From contig OZ024743.1 of the NCBI GenBank assembly GCA_964016885.1, positions 244,032,001 to 244,096,000 of the forward strand: DNA of 64,000 bases, given 5' to 3'. Origin of the DNA: Eledone cirrhosa (Eukaryota). Made by a program: the position numbers and the translations under genes. The notes beneath the pieces are model-generated. The model worked only from the letters and a program-made list of their open reading frames with translations, was not told the DNA's origin and ran no database searches. Below, piece after piece: positions 2,118-36,710 of this stretch (positions are counted from its first letter, which is position 1; each line of letters opens with the position of its first letter).

Positions 2118-2567
2118 GGCACAAAAGGTTTAAAGGGACGCGATGACTAGATTGAAGTATAACTATCGGTGTTGTGTGCAATTGCAAGTAGCATTACATC
2201 TGCTGATTCATTTTTATTGGGAGTACCTTTAAGTCTAAACTGTTGCGATCCGAAAGCTATTCAAAACTAATGGGATGTGAAACAGAAGAAGGAGGAAAAG
2301 TAAGCTCGTAATACCCCACAGAATTCATTTTGCACACCCGTGTTTGTGTGAAAATACAATTTGGAGCTGTTTGTGGTAATGTGTGTGTATGTATGTAAAC
2401 AAAACAAATTACATGCAAGAGAAAGAATGATACAATAAAGGTGGAGAAAAAACAAACAAACAAATAATTATATTAAAAATATATATATAACATTTAAAAA
2501 AAAAATTAAAATTCAATACAGATCTTATGTGCATGAGTGCTTTTCTTTGAATGAGTATGTTTTCACC

Positions 2568-2640
2568 ACCACAGATGTTGTTTCGCCACCACAGATGTTG
2601 CCGTTGCCACAGATGTTGCTATTGCCACAGATGTTGCTGT
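2568..2640 (+). repeat. Short tandem repeat containing ccacagatgttg (4 copies)
   Basis: Motif seen four times at about 18-21 bp spacing. Confidence 0.75.
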
Positions 2641-2654
2641 TACTGCTGTTGTAG

Positions 2655-3480
2655 TTAAAACGTTGATCGGTTGATGTAACAATTTTTGCATTTAGGATAT
2701 AGTTCTATATTTTGATGAAAATTGAGTTCGTCAAAGATTGTGTCTATATACTTTCTATGTTGTTCTTTTTTGTTTGTAAAAGTTGAATGATTGTTGAGAC
2801 TATCAGAAATTTCCATGTTCATAAAACTGTTCTGACTCCAACATTGTCCAACCACCAAGTGAAGACTGTGAATTCTTTTCTAACGTTGGGACACCAGTGT
2901 AGCAGTTGTATAATTTTGTATGTTGCGATAGAAGGAATTGGTTTGGGTTTTCGAAAGTTGTTTCTTTCGTTGTTAATCAGACTACGTGTTAGTAAGTCAG
3001 GGATCACCAATTGTTGCTAATGATATCGCTGCCGTTGCTTTCCCATATTATCCGAAAGCTGCATGCAGCATCAGTAAATACGTCGGAAAAATGCATCGGA
3101 AGGCTGTTCGATAAGTCAGGGTCACCAATGTATCGATGTTTGTATATTTTTGGTTGTAGCAAGAGAGATGGTTTGAGTTTGGTATTATTGTTGGTTGTTC
3201 ACTTTGGCGTGGTAGATGTTGTAGTAGTAATGTTGTTGGTTTGATGGGTGATTCCTTTGTGAAAAGCGAATGCTTATTGTTTTTGTACGAAGTAAAGTTC
3301 TTCTGGAATATACATATAGGAAAACATATTCCATTTCTAAATTTCTTTTTTTTTCTTCTCAAATTGCCGCATTCTGTAACAAAATATTTGTAGTGTTTGG
3401 CTACGAATGCTATTATGAATGGTTTAAGCCAAACCCACCCGTTGTGTATTGTTTATTTATTCATATTTATTTATATTTAT
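2655..3480 (-). pseudogene. Highly decayed Penelope-like element fragment (post-RT linker / GIY-YIG region)
   Basis: Broken ORFs with FRKPKPI, Cys-containing segments and YPKCKNCYINRS weakly resemble a PLE C-terminus. Multiple frameshifts. Confidence 0.4.
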
Positions 3481-4332
3481 TTATTTTATTGAAACTTATA
3501 ATAAGATTATATTAAACAAAGTTTGGATATACAAACTCATTAAACTACTATAATAACGGCATATTCGCTACAACTGCTTCGCTGTATACAGTTTGGATTT
3601 AGACTTTGGAACATGAAAATCTACAGTTTGTTGTTCTTCAAGAATTCGCCGGAGAACTCGTTGTAAAGAATATGTCATATTTATAATAGTTTAATATATT
3701 TACACACACACACTCACACATTCACATACACACAGCGAGGTTACCCATATGTTTATTTATATAAACGTATTATATATGTTTATGTATGTTTTCAGAAACA
3801 TCTATATTATACTTAAACACTATCTTAGTGCTACCGCAAATTAAAATAACCAGCCAAGTGTGCACTATATGCAAATGAGCATTTCCAGCCATGCTTTTGA
3901 TTTGATATATGCAAATGAGTATCTCCAGCAAATTATTGCCACACAAAATTCTATATAGACATATATAGTCTATTTCTGCTAGTACATTTTGAGTGAAAGT
4001 CGGATGAAATAATAACAAATCTTGAAACAGCGCTGTTTAACATTCTCAAAACCTACTGGCAACTGTATAATATATTCACAGAGGAAATTAGAGAAACATT
4101 TTTTCGTTACAATTTTTTTTTCTTCGGCAGCGAGGCTACCCATAAGTTGTATTATATATGTTGTTTTTATGGAGCGAGAGACTCCTAGTCTTCATTAACA
4201 AATCTTTCTAAGAGAAGGTCACTCTGATATAAAACCTACGACTTTGTTTGCATCCAATGATGTAGACCAGACATGCATATGTATATGCGTGTAGAAATAT
4301 GTATGTTGTATGATTTTGTGTATGTGTGTATG

Positions 4333-4398
<66 letters not shown>

Positions 4399-4423
4399 CA
4401 TACATATATACATATATGTATAT

Positions 4424-4458
<35 letters not shown>

Positions 4459-4834
4459 CATACATACATACATATATATATATACTCGAGATTTATCCTT
4501 AATAAGATATCTCAAAATGTGAGCAAAACCCATGGGTCGGGATTTAGTGATTTAATCCTGGTATGTATGTAAGCATTTCTAACTTTAATTTTTACCTAAT
4601 TATGTATGGTTGACCGTATATTTAATTAATTTCCACATGCTGTTGAAATGTTGGGTAAATATTCTATAGCTGTTGGCCGCTGCTGTGACGTATTTATTTA
4701 CTGTTTCTTCATAGGAGCCTTTTATTCTTATAGCCTGGTCTAATTGATTTTTTGTGTGGTTAATTATGCTGATTGGGAGTAGAGATGATGTATATATATT
4801 ATCAAATAATTCTCTGGACATGCTTTACTCTATA

Positions 4835-4899
<65 letters not shown>

Positions 4900-4904
4900 T
4901 ATCT

Positions 4905-5310
4905 ATTTAGGGTGGGTAAAATTCCCGAGATCCATGTACGAGCTCTCTCCAGCGGTCTCTGTCATTCATCATCGCCGCCATGTCCTGCGTCTCCAAGAGA
5001 CCTCTGTCTGTCCTTAGGGCATCAACATATGTCAACCTCGGTCTCCCTCTTCTAGTGTGTCCGTGTAGGGGCTCCCACAGGAGCACTGAGTGCAGTGTCA
5101 ACTCTGAATGTCGGTGAGCATGTCCAGCTAACCCCAGTCTCCTCTGTGTCACTTTTGAGCTGACATTTGGGAGGCTCCCGTACAGCTCTGAGTTCTTCAT
5201 CCTAAGTGTATACTGGTTAATGTTCAGAACCATCCTCAGCATTCTCGTGTAGCACCCATCCACCATCTGAGTGAGATTCTTGGTCAGTTTCCAAGTCTCA
5301 GACAGTGTGT
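4905..5310 (-). mobile_element. 5'-truncated RTE-clade LINE, 3' end
   Basis: SETWKLTKNLTQMVDGCYTRMLRMVLNI...RRLGLAGHAHRH...VLLWEP.HG..RRGRPRLTYVDAL...MNDRDRWR is a typical RTE C-terminus. Same family as 22780-23045. Confidence 0.9.
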
Positions 5311-5311
5311 T

Positions 5312-5362
<51 letters not shown>

Positions 5363-5426
5363 CCGTCGAAACGGGTTGAGTTCTGCCATCGGGGTCATAC
5401 TTTTTCCTATATATATATATATATAT

Positions 5427-5831
5427 GAATATATGTATAGTATATTTGGCAATATATCGTATATTTAATTTAAAACATTTAGAAGAACATACGCTATCAG
5501 TTTTAAAGTAGTGACTATGTCACTCCTTTTCGGCGAAAGAAGGGAGAGAAGCTGACAGTCTATTTCACGCTGGTTGGCGTTCATCAGAGCCACGTACGCC
5601 CTTGCTTTCGCCGAAAATTATAGAAGCTGGATTCTTATAGAATTCCACTAATAATCAGCAGCTGATTATACAGAGCGATTGCCGGTCCAGCAAAAATTAG
5701 ATATTAGGATTGGTGCTATGAAATAGCGATGTATACATGAATGTATGTATAGTATATTTGGGAATATACCGTCTTCTAAATGTTTTTAATTAAACATACG
5801 GTATATTGCCAAATATATTATACATACATTC
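5427..5831 (-). mobile_element. Non-coding hammerhead cassette (~312-bp monomer with terminal redundancy plus inverted arm)
   Basis: Direct repeat 5427-5460 / 5739-5772. Inverted arm 5772-5831 pairs with 5427-5487. Hammerhead at 5551-5590. Flanked by (TA)n. Confidence 0.7.
5551..5590 (-). ncRNA. Type I minimal hammerhead ribozyme
   Basis: Minus strand gcu-CUGAUGA-acgc caacca gcgu-GAAA-uagacug-UC-agc. Stem I gcu/agc, 4-bp stem II, near-palindromic stem III, GUC triplet. Confidence 0.8.
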
Positions 5832-6010
5832 AAATATATATAAATATATAAGTAGTAACACAACAGTTAGTTCACCATGTTCACCATATATATATATATA
5901 TATATGGTGAACTAACTGTTGTGTTACTACTTATATATTTATATATATTTTAGGATTGGTGCTGCTCTGAAATAGCGATGTATACATGAATGTATGTATA
6001 GTATATTTGG

Positions 6011-6052
<42 letters not shown>

Positions 6053-6055
<3 letters not shown>

Positions 6056-6661
6056 TGGCTGCCAACTCGTTTTCGAGTACGGCCATTACTTTATATCCAT
6101 GTAGGAGAACCCCTACCGATGCGCTGAACAAGTGTGACTTTTTAGTCCAGCCAGCGACTTGAACACTCTGGTACAAACACTACACTTGTGACAATTACTG
6201 AGACATAGTGCTGGGCTCATGGTACCATGTGACGACAAGTGCAGAGAGATCTCCAGATATAAAGCAATGCCTGTGCCGTGAAGCTTTTATAGTGAGCAAA
6301 GGCACTGCACAAAGCCAGTGTCCACTCTCTTAACCAAGATGATATTTACCAAAAAGAAGAACAAGTTAACATCATTGGATACCATCAAGGTTGCAGGTGT
6401 TATATCAGAGTTTTCCTTCTCCTAGAATTCTGTCTTGACAAAGGCTAAGGGGTCATCTCTCAGATGATTTTGGATGGCCATTTACTCTTAAGAGCTCCTT
6501 TGCTCTTTGACAGGTTTTGTTTTTAGTCCTGCAGGATGTCCAAAGTCACCCTCCTCACCAAAAAACCTTGGTGGCGTTGCCAGTTTAGTCGCCAACGACC
6601 CGACCATGAAACAGGTTGTACTGGGATACATGTTACCAGTAGCACCAACTGGTGACCTGAC
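6053..6661 (-). mobile_element. Non-autonomous RTE-derived retroelement, copy 1
   Basis: Highly similar to 40851-41383. The 3' part encodes a C2H2-like CSVCTRVFKSLAGLKSH resembling the RTE C-terminus at 38099-38400. The 5' part resembles 37690-37867. Confidence 0.75.
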
Positions 6662-6770
6662 ATATATATATATACATATATATATATACATACACACCTA
6701 CACAAAATCATAGATACATATTTCTACACGCATATATATATATATATGTATGTCTGGTCTACATCATTGC

Positions 6771-19629: not shown

Positions 19630-19699
19630 TATTTTATTATGCGCATTTCGAAAACAACAGCATCCTGGGACAAAAATTGTGTTCTCATCAGATAAAATA
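19630..19699 (-). ncRNA. Type I hammerhead ribozyme (inverted-arm copy)
   Basis: Reverse complement of 19807-19876 with the core intact. Confidence 0.85.
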
Positions 19700-19806
19700 A
19701 GGTAGCATGATGTGAGGCCTAAAAACACTTGTGAACAAGAAAGTGTCCAGTCAACATATGACAAAAATATAAGAGAAGAGAAAAAAGGCCTCATACCATG
19801 TTACCT

Positions 19807-19876
19807 TATTTTATCTGATGAGAACACAATTGTTGTCCCAGGATGATGTTGTTTTCGAAATGCGCATAATAAAATA
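19807..19876 (+). ncRNA. Type I hammerhead ribozyme
   Basis: uauuuuau-CUGAUGA-gaacacaa...uuguuuuc-GAAA-ugcgca-UA-auaaaaua. Perfect 8-bp stem I, palindromic stem III AUGCGCAU, AUA triplet. Confidence 0.9.
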
Positions 19877-26795: not shown

Positions 26796-27152
26796 TATTT
26801 TTTTTATGTGAGAAACAGGCTAAGAACATAACGGTGTCGTAGTTGCTGCGGACTATTATTATAGGAAAACTACGTAATACAACAGTTGCAGCCTGATGAC
26901 GTTCGGCAACCGAATACCAATAATTGGTACAGGTCGGCGATTGTTTTGCCGGGATGGTTGAGGTATTATTTACAAAGAATGTAGTTTGTGTTTGTTTGAG
27001 TTCGTGGTTGGTTTTAGTTTAATATGAATGATGAATGCATTTACGTTCAGGTTAAGGCAATTGACGGTTATATATATATATATATATATATGTTTCAGAA
27101 GATCCCGTTAAGGGTGAAAGCAGCGATTCTTTGCTTAAACTTTAATCTGTTA

Positions 27153-28937: not shown

Positions 28938-29406
28938 GTATATGTATACATGAATGTATGTAATATATATATATATATATATTTATTTATTTATTAAAGT
29001 TTAAGCAAAGAATCGCTGCTTTCACCCTTAACAGGATCTTTAGAAACTAAAAAAATCAATCTGTGAACGCAGAAGTAAATATTTCGAAAAACGTTGCAAC
29101 CGAAGGAAGACAGGAAGACGAGACTTTGGTTCGTAGAAACGTTCCCTGGCAAAGAACGAAAAATAAACGAAGATAATACGTCATTATTTGGAGCGGTGAA
29201 AACAATTACACGCAAAGACAAAACTACGTTTATGGTATAACTGTAGTCGTAGATTAATATTCTATTAGGTGGTTCGTGGAATGAACGGAAAAAACGAAGA
29301 TAATACGTCATTATATATAATATTGAGATGAGCGGAACAAGTAAAATTCAAACAATCTTTCAAAATAAATTCAAAAAATATAATTTAAATATTTACCTAT
29401 CCATAT

Positions 29407-29487
29407 TGCTTTTACCGCCGGTTTCGCCTCACAAAAGATTGGAAATCCGAGGGACTTCCAATGGAAAGTTCGGCTCTTCAGAAAGCA
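29407..29487 (-). ncRNA. Type I hammerhead ribozyme (inverted-arm copy)
   Basis: ugcuuu-CUGAAGA-gcc...ggc-GAAA-ccggcgg-UA-aaagca on the minus strand. Confidence 0.85.
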
Positions 29488-30049
29488 TTTTCCCTTACAT
29501 AGGACTTAAAGTCCCACAGCCGGCAAATATATTGCCTTCAGCCAGCTAGTGCAGGATCGAATGGGGCCTTAAACGTGACCTACACGTGAACTGGTCGTTA
29601 GTAGAAGCGGTAATAGCATTGACGTGTTGTTTGCCACACCAATAAAAATAGCAGCTAGGTAAACAACGGATTTTTTCTCTACTCATGGGAGAATTTATAT
29701 AAAATCAGATTAATATCCCTACAGGCATTAAGTACCCTGGTATGTCAAATTAATACCATTGAACAACAACTGTATCATAGACACCCTATATATTTCCGAG
29801 GGTACTTAGTCCCTGTGGGGATATTAATTTGATTTTATATAAATTCTCCCATGTGTAGAGAAAAAATCCGTTGTTTATCTAGCTGCTATTTTTAGTGGTG
29901 TGGCAGACAACACGTCTATGCTATTACCGCTTCTACTAACGACCAGTTCACGTGTAGGTCACGTTTACGGCCCCATTCGATCCTGCACTAGCTGGCTGAA
30001 AGCAATATATTTGCCGGCTGTGGGACTTTAAGTCTTATGTAAGGGAAAA

Positions 30050-30130
30050 TGCTTTCTGAAGAGCCGAACTTTCCATTGGAAGTCCCTCGGATTTCCAATT
30101 TTTTGTGAGGCGAAACCGTCGGTAAAAGCA
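30050..30130 (+). ncRNA. Type I hammerhead ribozyme with 49-nt stem II domain
   Basis: ugcuuu-CUGAAGA-gcc...ggc-GAAA-ccgucgg-UA-aaagca. 6-bp stem I, stem III ACCG/CGGU, GUA triplet. Confidence 0.88.
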
Positions 30131-30348
30131 ATATGGATAGGTAAATATTTAAATTATATTTTTTGAATTTATTTTGAAAGATTGTTTGAATTTTACTTGT
30201 TCCGCTCATCTCAATTTTATAGTTCTGGTATTCAAATTAATACCATTGAACAACGACTGTATCATAGACACCCTATATATTTCCGAGGGTACTTAGTCCC
30301 TGTGGGGATATTAATCTCATTTTATATATATATAATATATATATATGC

Positions 30349-30395
<47 letters not shown>

Positions 30396-30435
30396 GATAT
30401 TAAACAAATGGAAACTATATTTATAAAACCATATT

Positions 30436-30501
30436 TATTTCATTATACATATTTCAGGGATACCATATTAAAAATATGGCATGCCTTCTTCAGATAAAAT
30501 A
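30436..30501 (-). ncRNA. Type I hammerhead ribozyme in the PLE 3' region
   Basis: uauuuuau-CUGAAGA-aggcaugccauauu uuu aauaugguaucccu-GAAA-uaugua-UA-augaaaua. About 1.3 kb 3' of the PLE ORF on the same strand. Confidence 0.88.
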
Positions 30502-31836
30502 CAATATATAAGCAGTTTTATAAATAAATTTGACGTACCATAAAATATTGATCAACTTCCATTTAAAAAAGTTGGTTTGGTAGTGAAATGTTTGTAAATA
30601 TTTAGTGTTAAGTACAGTTAGAAAGAAAGACGGAGAGAAGGAATAAATGTATGTAAAGAAAAATAGAGAGAGATAGAGAGAAATATGGGAGAGAGAAATA
30701 GTGAGGAGGTGAACAATGAGAGGCAGCTGAGGTAACAGATGAATAATAATAATTCAACATGCAAAATGAGAGATTTAGGGGGGGAGGGAGTACTGTAATT
30801 ATTTATTTATTTATTTATTTAGTTATAGTGTTAAGGAGACGGAGAAAAATAAAAAATAACAGCGATACATAGATTACATCATGTATAGAGGGAGGAGAAG
30901 AAAGCTATATCTAGAGAGAAGGATGACAGATTTACAACTTTACGTTATGTTCTATCAATTTGAATTATCAATTTATATGAATTGGGTATTATACTGTAAA
31001 TATCAATATTCATGAATGAGACATAGATATATAATGTTTGAAAAATAATGACCATATGTTTAGTTTAAAAATTCTTAGGTCGATATATCAAAAACCTGAG
31101 ATAAAACTTCAAAATACATAAGTATATATGTACTTTTCGGAAAAAGAAAGAAAGAGAAAAAGAGAAGGTCATCTCAAGTTCTAGTTGACACTATAGATAT
31201 ACACGTGAGCATACGTGATCAGCTCTGTAATTTCTCATTTCACATGAAAAAATGTTCCTTTGCGTTATAAAAGATTTTACTATATATATATATATATACA
31301 TACATACACGTACATAAAAATATAAAATATATATTAATATTAATATTCCTGCCCTCACATACATGATTATCGTTCATGTATAGAATAGACAACAGATATC
31401 AATATATCAAAACGCTAAGAATACTTTCATCACTCCCTAGAGTGTCTAGGGCCTTAAAAAACACAGTATGCACCCCATATCAACCACAGAAATCAACCCT
31501 TCCAATTTATCTGACAATATATTGCCAAGTTCATTAGAAGCAATCAGAATCAAAAGCAAACAAAAAACCAAAATTATTCAACAAGACTTATTTAGCAGAA
31601 ATCATTTAAAAGATTTAGGAGACCCTGTTGTTCTACAGATGCTCTTATATTTAGTATAGAAGTTTATCTAGCGTAAAATTTATTCAATAGATTGGGAGCA
31701 TCAACATTTAAGGGTAGTTTAATTACATCATTAGTATATATTTATGAAGAAGGTTTAAAAAAGAAAAAGTTGAAGGAATCGAAAGATTTATCGTCATGTT
31801 TCATAATTAATTAAATAAATATCTTAACTAAATATA

Positions 31837-33568
31837 CTACATTTTAAATTTATATTTATATTTAAACGTTGAGTTCAATCTATGTCTGCAGCAACTGAAT
31901 AGATTGCTCCTTAGATTAAGGGAATTTTTAGATTTTAATATAAAGAATATCTCCTCCACGCAGAGGTCACATGTCTCAGATGAGGAATTAAAAGGAATCC
32001 CTCTTGAGACTATATTCCAAAACAACAAATATCCACCTTTATCATGTTTAAGTTGCCAGAGTAAGCCTGATAGTGAAGTTGAAGATTTTTTGCCTGGATC
32101 TGTGAAAGAATTCTTATGATTATTATAGCGAAGTTTAAATTCTGTCGAGGTGGAACCAACATAGTTAAAAGAATTTAAGTCAGTTTTAACATTACAATTG
32201 TATATTATATTTTTAACTAAGCAATTGTTATTTAACGGACATTTAGATTTATTTCTACAGTTACAGTTGTTTAATTGAATATTGTTTAGGCTATTATCTG
32301 TATTTTGGCTAGGTTTTAGATTCCTATTATTTATTCTGTTAATATTTTGTGCTAAGTTTTTGGTGGACGAGTAAGTTAATTTTATAGTATGTCTATTAAA
32401 AATTGAGTGATATTTATGTGTTCTAGGGAAGCGTTTGTCAAGAGCATTAAAAAATAGTTTAGCAATGTGGGTTTTAATATTTAGTGAGAGGGGGGGGGGG
32501 GGCAAACCATATTATATTTCTAGTTCTATTTCTTTTCTGGCTTTTGGAATTATTGTAATGTTTTCTATTATAGTTGTTAAAGTTGTTACCGTAATTAAAA
32601 TTGTTGTTATATTGGTTAGTTTGCCTATTATTATCGATGTACATAATTTTATCACTATATCCTGCTCTAGCTAACGCTTCATTGTAATACTGCGCTTTTT
32701 CGTCGAAAATATTTTTATTAGATGAAATTCTTGAGATACGTTCTTGAACAGAGTTCACTATAGTATTTTTAACAGATCTGGGGTGATTAGAGTTAAAACT
32801 GACATAATTCAAGTTTTCATTTAGTTTGTGAAAAGGATAGTGAAGACATGTGTTGAGATTTAGTGTTACATCTAGGAAATTGACTATTCTATGGTTATTC
32901 TCTATTTCTATTTTTAGATTAAGGTAATTAAAAAATTGTATAATTTGTTTTCTTTTCCTATTTAGTTCAGAGTTATTATTTTCAATAAGTAAAAGCGTGT
33001 CATCACGATATAATCCTCCGGTTACACCAGGTATTTTTCTATGTAGCGAATTAATTATAAATAGGCCCACAAGGTCCGTTACCTGAGCTGAGTCAGATGA
33101 TCCCATAGTAATGTCGAAATTATTATCTCTATCTGCCCTAGTCCATAGTTGGTTATTAAATTCTATCAATGTTTTCCTTGCCGATAATATAATGTGCATT
33201 TCATTGCTAGTTAGGTCTGTATGTTTGAATGCGTAATTTAGTGCCTTATTTAGTAGATTAGGGGTAATAGATGAATAGTAGTTAGCAATATCTAGTTGAA
33301 TAAATTTATTATTATTGTTATATTTAATTTCTTTAAACCACTCAATAACCTCACCAGTTCCCTTCCACAAGTTTAAGTTAGGTAAACCATGTAAGTTTTT
33401 AACCTGCTGTATCACCCTGTCTAGAATGTTTTTGCTAAGTTTACCCAGGTCAGATTTTGATGGTGCAATCAATCTGACTGGCAAATCATTTTCAAAATTT
33501 CTTTTGTGATCTTTCATACTGAAATATGTATGATGAAATAAATATGGTTTTATAAATATAGTTTCCAT
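31837..33568 (-). CDS. Penelope-like retroelement polyprotein (RT + Zn knuckle + GIY-YIG), 5'-truncated, one frameshift at a G-run near 32490-32502
   Basis: RT motifs QLDIANYYSSI, ITMGSSDSAQVTDLVG, LYRDD, VNFLDVTL, SNHPRS. Then CNCRNKSKCPLNNNCL, NIIY...YVGSTSTEFKLRYNNH and CDLCVEE. Confidence 0.93.
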
Positions 33569-33667
33569 TTGTTTAATATCGTATATCTACTCCAAAACTT
33601 GTTGAGTGCTTTATATCAGTTATAAAATATTTACTCGTTGTAACCCAACAATTTTAAATAAAACTTT

Positions 33668-33713
<46 letters not shown>

Positions 33714-34323: not shown

Positions 34324-34883
34324 ATATGGGTGAGAAGAATACTGCTGGTTGCACATGGATAACATGTTATAAAATGAGTCCCTCATCAGTGATTTACCAA
34401 ACGATCATGGGTATTTCATCGCATTAAAAATCATTTACCTCACGTTGGAGCGATAATAACTAAAATAAGTTATTAGGACAATAGAAACGCGTAAAGCGAG
34501 TGAGACAAGTAAACAACACAGGGGGAAGCTAACCGAAGATGGAAATAAACACAAGCAACATAGTTATTCTTTCAGCGTAAGCTGTGTGAATATATGAGCG
34601 AGTCAGAAAACAGACCTTTCACTAGTGAATCCGGTGTTAGAAAGAATGAAAACCGTTTTCCCAGCGAACGGGAGGAAGAAAGAAGGGGAGAAACAGGGAC
34701 TGAGTGAGTGGGAGTGCGAGGAAGAGGTCAGTAGAGAGAAAGAGTTAACTGACATGGCAGAGGGGACGAAAGAAAGTAAGAGAAACAGAGAGAACGAGGG
34801 AGCAGTAAGAGAGAAAGAGAGAAACACAGAATTGCAGTTTGGGTAAATATATGAAAATATGGGTGAGAAGAATACTGCTGGTT
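34315..34883 (-). repeat. 533-bp unit with ~35-bp terminal direct repeat, carrying a CUGAUGA motif related to 15354-15975
   Basis: gaaaatatgggtgagaagaatactgctggtt at 34320 and 34853. 34376-34480 is homologous to 15365-15470. Confidence 0.65.
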
Positions 34884-34957
34884 ATATAATCAGGTTTAGC
34901 AAATAATGAAAAAGTTTCAAAATAAATTTTAAAAAATTGACTTTACTTACTATAGTT

Positions 34958-35041
34958 ACCTTTACCGAATCGGTTTCGAATCTCAAAAATAAACGGAGAC
35001 CATACGGCCTTCGTTGCAAAGAAAGATTCTCGTCAGAAGGT
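34958..35041 (-). ncRNA. Type I hammerhead ribozyme with 52-nt stem II domain
   Basis: accuu-CUGACGA-gaaucu...agauuc-GAAA-ccgauucgg-UA-aaggu. All three stems pair, GUA triplet. Confidence 0.88.
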
Positions 35042-35105
35042 TCTTTTCATTCGAAGAATATAAAATTCTTGAATTTAAATTACGAACTAGCGATATATAT
35101 ATATA

Positions 35106-36618: not shown

Positions 36619-36710
36619 ACATATTACATATGTTTCACTGTTGATCAGCTCGAGGAACGATCTATTAATGATCGAACCTGACTCTAGAATCGGAAGTTCT
36701 TCAGATATGT
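36619..36710 (-). ncRNA. Type I hammerhead ribozyme with 61-nt stem II domain
   Basis: acauau-CUGAAGA-acu...agu-GAAA-cauaug-UA-auaugu. Perfect palindrome ACAUAUGU, GUA triplet. Confidence 0.85.

What the first reader, a model, noticed from the sequence alone, without database searches (positions are those of the whole stretch)
29322..30315. Retrozyme-like cassette: 488-nt monomer with one hammerhead, ~90-bp terminal redundancy and an inverted 5' arm
Seen: 29737-29828 recurs at 30225-30315 (period 488), with one plus-strand hammerhead per period (30050-30130). An upstream ~415-bp inverted copy carries a second hammerhead. There is no ORF and the 3' end abuts (TA)n. Inference: this layout fits reverse transcription running more than once around a circular (or tandem) hammerhead RNA, followed by fold-back. 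That suggests a non-autonomous circRNA retroelement using the PLE RT/GIY-YIG in trans. The alternative is a solo PLE terminal repeat.
Basis: partly seen in the sequence, partly recalled or inferred. Interest (0 to 1): 0.85.

Follow-up and report, generated by a model that had tools for sequence, protein, structure and literature searches.

The report
Two-armed hammerhead retrozyme, Penelope footprint
This is one ageing copy of a dispersed, non-coding 488-base repeat with a hammerhead ribozyme motif, and its two mirror-image arms end at two fixed sites as in Penelope-type jumping genes, so it was likely written into DNA by a borrowed Penelope enzyme priming from both sides of a break, probably on an RNA circle.

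Summary
In detail: a 488-nt ORF-less unit read 1.2 times on + (29737-30323), a 423-nt inverted arm (29316-29738), one type I hammerhead motif per arm, ending at (TA)n. It belongs to a family of a few hundred copies. In 228 arms from 169 loci none was a coding element's terminal repeat. 3' ends fall at two fixed sites about 107 nt apart (139 and 56 arms), and 33 of 34 classifiable back-to-back pairs use one site each: the Penelope 'tail' footprint, which coding Hydra-type elements in this genome also show. Fold-back is not supported: five pairs share almost no sequence. A younger sister family (483 nt, 64% identical, same two sites) has an arm of 8.8 near-identical laps, favouring a circular template, but a linear multimer is not excluded and no RNA data exist. 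This copy has one ribozyme per strand and cannot release a circle by double cleavage. Two retrozyme-Penelope fusions hint at the partner but may be deletions. Verdict: new member of the known animal non-LTR retrozymes. The scan already reported the same two-armed layout for other families (310, 422, 467 nt) in this genome.

The parts
29316..29738 (-). Left arm: unit positions 63-485, 3' end at fixed site A, 5'-truncated
29407..29487 (-). Type I hammerhead motif of the left arm; predicted cut after GUA 29415-29413
29737..30224 (+). Right arm, one full 488-nt unit (5' truncation point at 29737; 2-nt overlap with the left arm)
30050..30130 (+). Type I hammerhead motif with long stem II extension; predicted cut after GUA 30122-30124
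30225..30323 (+). Start of the next lap, ending at fixed site B (the 'tail')
30323..30394 (.). (TA)n target tract, shared with the neighbouring coding element
30387..33670 (-). Context, not part of the family: separate two-armed coding Penelope-like insertion (RT frame 32474-33586, endonuclease frame 31837-32511, own hammerhead 30436-30501, short + arm from 33519)
34883..35096 (-). Context: 5'-truncated copy of the 483-487-nt sister family with its hammerhead (34958-35041)

Best explanation
This is one insertion of an ORF-less 488-nt hammerhead repeat family (an animal non-LTR retrozyme), likely copied into a (TA)n break by a Penelope-like RT/GIY-YIG protein acting in trans, which likely primed separately from both DNA ends at two fixed internal sites of the RNA, probably running round a circular monomer. 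Shown: closed 488-nt unit, no ORF, two fixed 3' ends beside (TA)n, one end per arm, scattered 5' truncation, seamless read-through of the predicted cut site. Inferred: transcription of a copy with two ribozymes, self-cleavage, ligation to a circle, capture by a Hydra-clade Penelope protein (dimer), two-sided priming, joining of the two cDNA 5' ends in the middle. My odds: Penelope-mobilised ORF-less element about 0.9; circle rather than linear multimer about 0.6; the specific partner family about 0.4.
For: Ends: 139 arms at site A, 56 at site B, 33 elsewhere, of 228; back-to-back pairs 33 AB, 1 AA, 0 BB, 13 with an unclassified end (p 2e-9). TATATA at the end in 91/100 A and 37/38 B arms against 7/22 others (first 160 arms). 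Same rule in a coding Hydra-type family here: 7 of 8 opposed arms stop about 66 nt before the main end. In vitro, a Penelope protein cuts and extends both strands and starts at two internal sites that match the genomic tail (PMC11167929). No arm is an ORF's terminal repeat. A sister family is colinear over the whole unit at 64% (290/456), with homologous ends 108 nt apart and compensatory changes in hammerhead stem I. Its locus L307 has a 4270-nt arm with 8 full units, 7 identical and 1 with one substitution, plus a matching opposed arm. Laps within one insertion differ at family-polymorphic sites 5-7 times less than different loci (0.5-0.7% vs 2.9-5.2%); the three-way test gave 4:9, near the 1:2 expected of one template. 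No insertions and 2 deletions in 211 arms at the cut site. 5' ends cluster at the cut site, 18 of 228 vs 7 expected (p 4e-4).
Against: No RNA evidence either way. The isolated ribozyme folds better without stem III (-27.0 vs -23.8 kcal/mol), so cleavage may need a dimer or protein; in Xenopus only 1 of 9 tested elements cleaved. The 5' cluster is not clear in the 77 arms chosen by an end-A pattern (3 vs 1.4 and 2 vs 1.0), and most loci were chosen by hammerhead patterns, which favours read-through. Different-lap pairs are slightly more diverged than same-position pairs (6.8% vs 5.4%), leaning to a linear template. In this copy a rare G at unit position 95 is in two of three copies. In L308 two of three units share a doublet change the third lacks. 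No arm of this family reaches two units (max 908 nt). No A-to-G editing excess (94 vs 134, p 0.59). No coding parent found; the two fusions could be deletions.
Confidence: 0.7

Rival explanations
1. Same element and same enzyme, but the template is linear: an uncleaved or partly cleaved multimeric transcript of a tandem master locus, or cleaved monomers that the RT joins by end-to-end jumps. No circle is needed.
For: 5' ends cluster at the cut site, so some templates had a free end there. Different-lap divergence is slightly higher. Uncleaved RNA was the main substrate in vitro (PMC11167929). Young tandem arrays of the sister family exist and could be transcribed.
Against: No scars at the cut-site junction in 211 arms, against jumping. 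No array of two or more units among 169 loci of this family to act as master. No lap-specific alleles in the three-way test (small numbers). Linear copying alone only shortens arrays.
Confidence: 0.22
2. Solo, 5'-truncated terminal repeats (pLTRs) of an autonomous Penelope element that I did not sample.
For: Inverted 5' arm, tail, partial tandem and (TA)n targeting are all standard Penelope features (PMC8557442); most Penelope insertions are truncated to one terminal repeat. My sample is 169 loci of an estimated 270 or more units.
Against: Arms run from position 488 back to 1 with nothing between, up to 1.86 laps; upstream of a unit there is more unit, never a shared ORF end. Three families at 55-64% identity keep the closed ORF-free unit. 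A clade profile hit 1 of 79 regions downstream of endonuclease ends, and that was a fusion with another retrozyme.
Confidence: 0.06
3. A DNA-level product: fold-back or inverted duplication of one insertion, with arrays grown by unequal exchange like a satellite.
For: 423-nt palindrome; identical units in L307 could also come from recent local amplification; Li et al. propose local amplification for tandem retrozymes.
Against: The A+B rule in 33 of 34 pairs, non-overlapping arms in 5 pairs, and both outer ends flush with (TA)n.
Confidence: 0.02

Closest known systems
Metazoan non-LTR retrozymes (Cervera and de la Pena 2020, PMC7229834: abstract start, passages and Discussion read; Li, Clavereau and Pollet 2026, 10.64898/2026.07.22.740005: parts 1-3 of 5 read, supplements not seen)
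   Same: ORF-less repeat with one type I hammerhead per unit, low GC, monomers to multimers, proposed Penelope mobilisation through circles; unit length within the 51-972 bp range reported.
   Different: This family is mostly one lap or less; this copy fails the 'two consecutive hammerhead units' rule for an active element. The two-armed layout with two fixed ends is not described in the parts read ('inverted' and 'target site' occur 0 times in PMC7229834; 'tail' 0 times in the preprint). No homologous coding pLTR found here, unlike 24 of 57 Xenopus families that matched Repbase elements.
Hydra-clade Penelope-like elements (Craig et al. 2021, PMC8557442: passages and section 11 read)
   Same: (TA)n targeting, canonical hammerhead; partial tandems, inverted 5' copy and a tail at one end are described there for Penelope-like elements in general. 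The coding family fused to the retrozymes has the CxCX5C linker, CxxC and CxH motifs given for Hydra.
   Different: No ORF; tail about 107 nt rather than 30-40 nt; clade assigned by motifs only, no tree built.
Anolis Poseidon element PAc in vitro (Frangieh et al. 2024, PMC11167929: parts 1-2 of 4 read)
   Same: Two internal RT start sites defining the tail, cutting and extension of both strands, AT-rich target, predicted dimer.
   Different: Autonomous, different clade, start sites inside the ORF; no circular template tested in the parts read.
MRC1 and other non-autonomous Chlamys elements of Chlamydomonas (passage in PMC8557442)
   Same: Non-coding Penelope derivatives with pLTRs and head-to-tail copies.
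   Different: They generally resemble their autonomous partner at the 3' end; no such likeness was found here.

Membership tests
Metazoan non-LTR retrozyme | Type I hammerhead motif in each repeat unit | tested here: met
   compensatory stem I changes in the sister family; Rfam does not detect it
Metazoan non-LTR retrozyme | No protein coding capacity | tested here: met
   longest ATG ORF 73 codons, 92 on the closed unit, both antisense; no ORF attached in 169 loci
Metazoan non-LTR retrozyme | Head-to-tail units of a few hundred nt | tested here: met
   63 of 228 arms exceed one unit, max 1.86; sister family up to 8.8 units
Metazoan non-LTR retrozyme, 'active' class of Li et al. | [quoted passage not shown] | tested here: not met
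   this copy has one per strand; 14 of 228 family arms span two. Filed as a monomer-class offspring of the family, not as an active copy
Metazoan non-LTR retrozyme | Self-cleavage of the transcript | not testable with these tools
   only folding and a weak 5' cluster at the cut site
Metazoan non-LTR retrozyme | Monomeric circular RNA in cells | not testable with these tools
   no RNA run listed
Penelope-like insertion | Fixed 3' ends with a one-sided tail, 5' truncation, inverted 5' arm, microsatellite target | tested here: met
Non-autonomous derivative of a named Penelope family | Sequence homology to the partner's terminal repeat | tested here: inconclusive
   no parent among 79 regions downstream of endonuclease ends, many of them from one family; not a genome-wide test
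Autonomous Penelope-like element (solo pLTR) | Unit joined in fixed register to an RT-GIY-YIG ORF in some copies | tested here: not met
   0 of 169 loci; one irregular fusion, L102

The most novel reading that the evidence does not exclude
A clade of ribozyme RNA circles (at least three families of 483-543 nt, 55-64% identical) has lived ORF-free in this genome for a long time by keeping two priming sites for a Hydra-clade Penelope dimer, which reverse-transcribes one circle from both ends of a (TA)n break, for up to nine laps, and can switch mid-reaction between the circle and its own mRNA (fusions L102 and L222), naming the enzyme partner directly from genome sequence.
Probability: 0.35. Interest if true: 0.7.

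Novelty: new member of a known kind. Interest (0 to 1): 0.45.

Why it matters
Penelope mobilisation of animal retrozymes through RNA circles is proposed in the papers read here, from co-occurrence and terminal-repeat likeness, but the reverse-transcription step is not shown there. This clade supplies exact predictions: two priming sites on a defined RNA, one per DNA end, a (TA)n target, a young family with multi-lap products and a candidate Hydra-clade enzyme. With the published in vitro Penelope assay these can be tested directly. The copy in the window is itself an ageing, probably inert insertion.

Tried and rejected
RNA: no RNA holder listed; three contig runs of unknown kind from one study were laid and say nothing on expression. 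Rfam: nothing at gathering score, only palindrome-driven hits below cut-off. Pfam finds no family in the Penelope-like proteins; 308 unnamed homologues added no label. Four same-strand matches 3.9 kb apart (L121/L122) looked like tandem coding elements but are a segmental duplication without a Penelope ORF; both loci were dropped from all counts. Penelope ORFs within 4 kb of many copies (L092, L109, L087, L160, L146 and others) are separated by (TA)n or other DNA and belong to several families: shared targeting, not attachment. L308 looked like a fusion but has a TA tract between. The neighbouring coding element at 30387-33670 has a different hammerhead, different ends and no homology to the unit. 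A-to-I editing scars: none. The bacterial promoter scan was uninformative. One search was in the wrong frame; one search gave the ORF. Arms under 60 nt or under 74% identity were left out of the counts, as were 15 loci already held, and chimeric L094 in the lap comparison. Searches for earlier notes on this family by sequence, place and words returned nothing.

Full report
Observation. A 423-nt inverted pair (29316-29738 and 29799-30221, 96%) and a direct repeat at 487-488 spacing are present; the redundancy is about 100 nt. My pattern scan finds a type I hammerhead motif on each strand (+ 30050-30130, - 29407-29487). Rfam misses it, probably because stem II carries a 43-nt extension. There is no meaningful ORF. 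The unit folds well beyond shuffles (z -4.9), but the isolated ribozyme prefers a fold without the 3-bp stem III (-27.0 vs -23.8 kcal/mol). The window is from a 3.0-Gb, microsatellite-rich animal genome with many other hammerhead families.

Family. A genome search with the element gave 67 matches from the 40 best of 2,899 candidates. Three short patterns gave 62, 136 and 177 exact matches, controls 0. Overlap of the first two on contigs 1-4 (43, 96, 22 shared, counted by hand from the listings) suggests about 270 hammerhead-bearing units, a lower bound. I fetched all 53 loci of the first pattern, 8 further top hits, and the loci among the first 100 listed matches of the other two patterns (most for the second, all for the third), with 1.5-4 kb flanks. 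After dropping duplicates, one segmental duplication and arms under 60 nt or 74% identity, 228 arms in 169 loci remain. They form a younger group (median 95.4% to its consensus) and an older one; no identical copies were seen, and the two arms in the window differ at 14 of 407 sites. The family looks dormant.

Ends. Numbering the unit from 29737, 139 arms end at site A (about 479-485), 56 at site B (about 98-105 of the next lap) and 33 elsewhere. A and B ends are followed by TATATA in 91 of 100 and 37 of 38 cases, other ends in 7 of 22 (first 160 arms). Both sites follow the motif ATCTCA and lie just 3' of a predicted hairpin. Of 47 back-to-back pairs, 33 are A+B, 1 is A+A, none B+B, and 13 have an unclassified end (p 2e-9 for the 34). 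The window copy is such a pair: left arm A, right arm B. Five A+B pairs share under 20% of the shorter arm, four of them nothing, which fold-back copying cannot give. This is the Penelope pattern. Craig et al. describe partial tandems, an inverted 5' copy and a tail at one end (PMC8557442, passages). Frangieh et al. show that a Penelope protein cuts and extends both strands of AT-rich DNA and starts at two internal RNA sites that match the tail (PMC11167929, parts 1-2 of 4). A coding family in this genome follows the same rule: 7 of its 8 opposed arms stop about 66 nt short of the main end. The window's coding neighbour has an offset of about 85 nt.

Not a solo terminal repeat. Upstream of a unit there is more unit, the opposed arm, TA or unrelated DNA, never a shared ORF end. 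Penelope ORFs nearby are of several families and separated by TA tracts or other DNA. A relaxed hammerhead pattern gave 3,285 hits against 10, mostly a sister group of 483-487-nt units, colinear with ours over the whole length at 64%, with homologous ends 108 nt apart and compensatory changes in stem I. A third family of 543 nt aligns best in the same phase (297 identities; score 195 vs at most 143 for 8 shuffles). A profile of the clade hit 1 of 79 regions downstream of endonuclease ends, a fusion discussed below. This is a sample, not a genome-wide exclusion.

Circle or linear template. For: 63 of 228 arms exceed one unit; the predicted cut site is crossed without scars (0 insertions, 2 deletions in 211); laps inside one insertion differ at family-polymorphic sites 5-7 times less than separate loci and share rare alleles more often; in three-way comparisons derived alleles were shared 4 times by same-position pairs and 9 times by cross-lap pairs, near the 1:2 of a single template; sister locus L307 has a 4270-nt arm ending at site A with eight full units, seven identical, and an opposed 172-nt arm ending at B. 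Against or neutral: different-lap divergence is a little higher than same-position divergence (155/2282 vs 111/2057); L308 units share four locus-specific changes but two of three share a further doublet; this family never reaches two laps, and the chance of stopping rises with length; no editing scars. 5' ends cluster at the cut site (18 of 228 in 15 nt, 7 expected, the top window), hinting that some templates were cleaved there, but this is weak in the less biased 77-arm subset, and most loci were chosen by hammerhead patterns. I put the circle at about 0.6.

Partner. In L102 a site-A arm of this family (positions 215-485) continues, through a patchwork of 11-16-nt pieces from both sides with 2-nt microhomologies, into the ORF of a coding element, and the opposed arm is that coding element ending at its own downstream site. 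In L222 a 543-nt family arm continues without TA into the same coding family. That family has the CxCX5C linker, CxxC and CxH motifs that Craig et al. give for the Hydra clade, which targets (TA)n and carries hammerheads (section 11); its best copies are 93-95% alike, a similar age. Template switching would explain both, but so would deletions joining neighbours in a shared TA tract: roughly 60 of 228 arms have a 5' junction that is neither TA nor an opposed arm (derived), and this family is common. I treat them as leads.

Mechanism. Shown: closed ORF-less unit, two fixed ends, one per arm, TA target, random 5' truncation. Inferred: a copy with two ribozymes (14 of 228 arms span two) is transcribed, self-cleaves, perhaps as a dimer or with protein help, and is ligated to a circle as shown for coral, mussel and axolotl retrozymes (PMC7229834, passages and Discussion); a Hydra-clade protein nicks (TA)n and primes from both ends at sites A and B; the two cDNAs are joined in the middle. 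The window copy has one ribozyme per strand, so it cannot release a monomer by double cleavage, and a read-through transcript would form a 423-bp hairpin that masks the ribozyme (inference).

Novelty. The kind is known, and Penelope origin and mobilisation are already proposed (PMC7229834; preprint 10.64898/2026.07.22.740005, parts 1-3 of 5; its supplements were not seen and may list similar structures). Seven paper searches and term counts in those two papers found no description of the two-ended footprint in retrozymes; most subscription journals are not in the library. Earlier notes of this scan report the same layout for 310-, 422- and 467-nt families in this genome; they pointed me to the end test, which I ran on this family myself. 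Verdict: real, a new member of a known kind, with useful mechanistic footprints; interest 0.45.

Noticed in passing
L307 (G000:C1:82114000-82123500), 2245-6685: Very young two-armed insertion of the 483-nt sister family with 8.8 near-identical laps; best target for RNA tests.
   Followed up: partly
L102 3857-5280 and L222 2552-3237: Direct fusions of retrozyme arms (two different families) to the same coding Hydra-type Penelope family; template switch or deletion.
   Followed up: partly
window 30387-33670: Two-armed coding Penelope-like insertion with RT and endonuclease in different frames, own hammerhead and two ends about 85 nt apart; shares the TA tract with the finding. No Pfam hit.
   Followed up: partly
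window 19630-19876, 36619-36710, 41601-41674, 48191-48245, 55719-55774: Hammerhead motifs of at least four further repeat families; the pair at 19630-19876 is back-to-back.
   Followed up: no
window 28993-29315 (inverted partial copy at 27092-27146): Arm of another very abundant repeat directly beside the left arm, ending at (TA)n; related copies show a hammerhead-like layout with CAGAAGA in place of CTGAAGA (L141).
   Followed up: no
L087 3510-3686 and L144 3983-4170: The same roughly 180-bp repeat interrupts the unit at about positions 2-18 in two separate loci, suggesting a preferred target inside the retrozyme.
   Followed up: no
L121/L122 (G000:C2:144354000-144373999): Tandem segmental duplication of about 3.9 kb, 98-99% identical, each copy with a 104-nt piece of the family.
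   Followed up: yes
window 43849-46380: Long G/T-rich tandem array with a 59-nt period and extreme strand skew.
   Followed up: no
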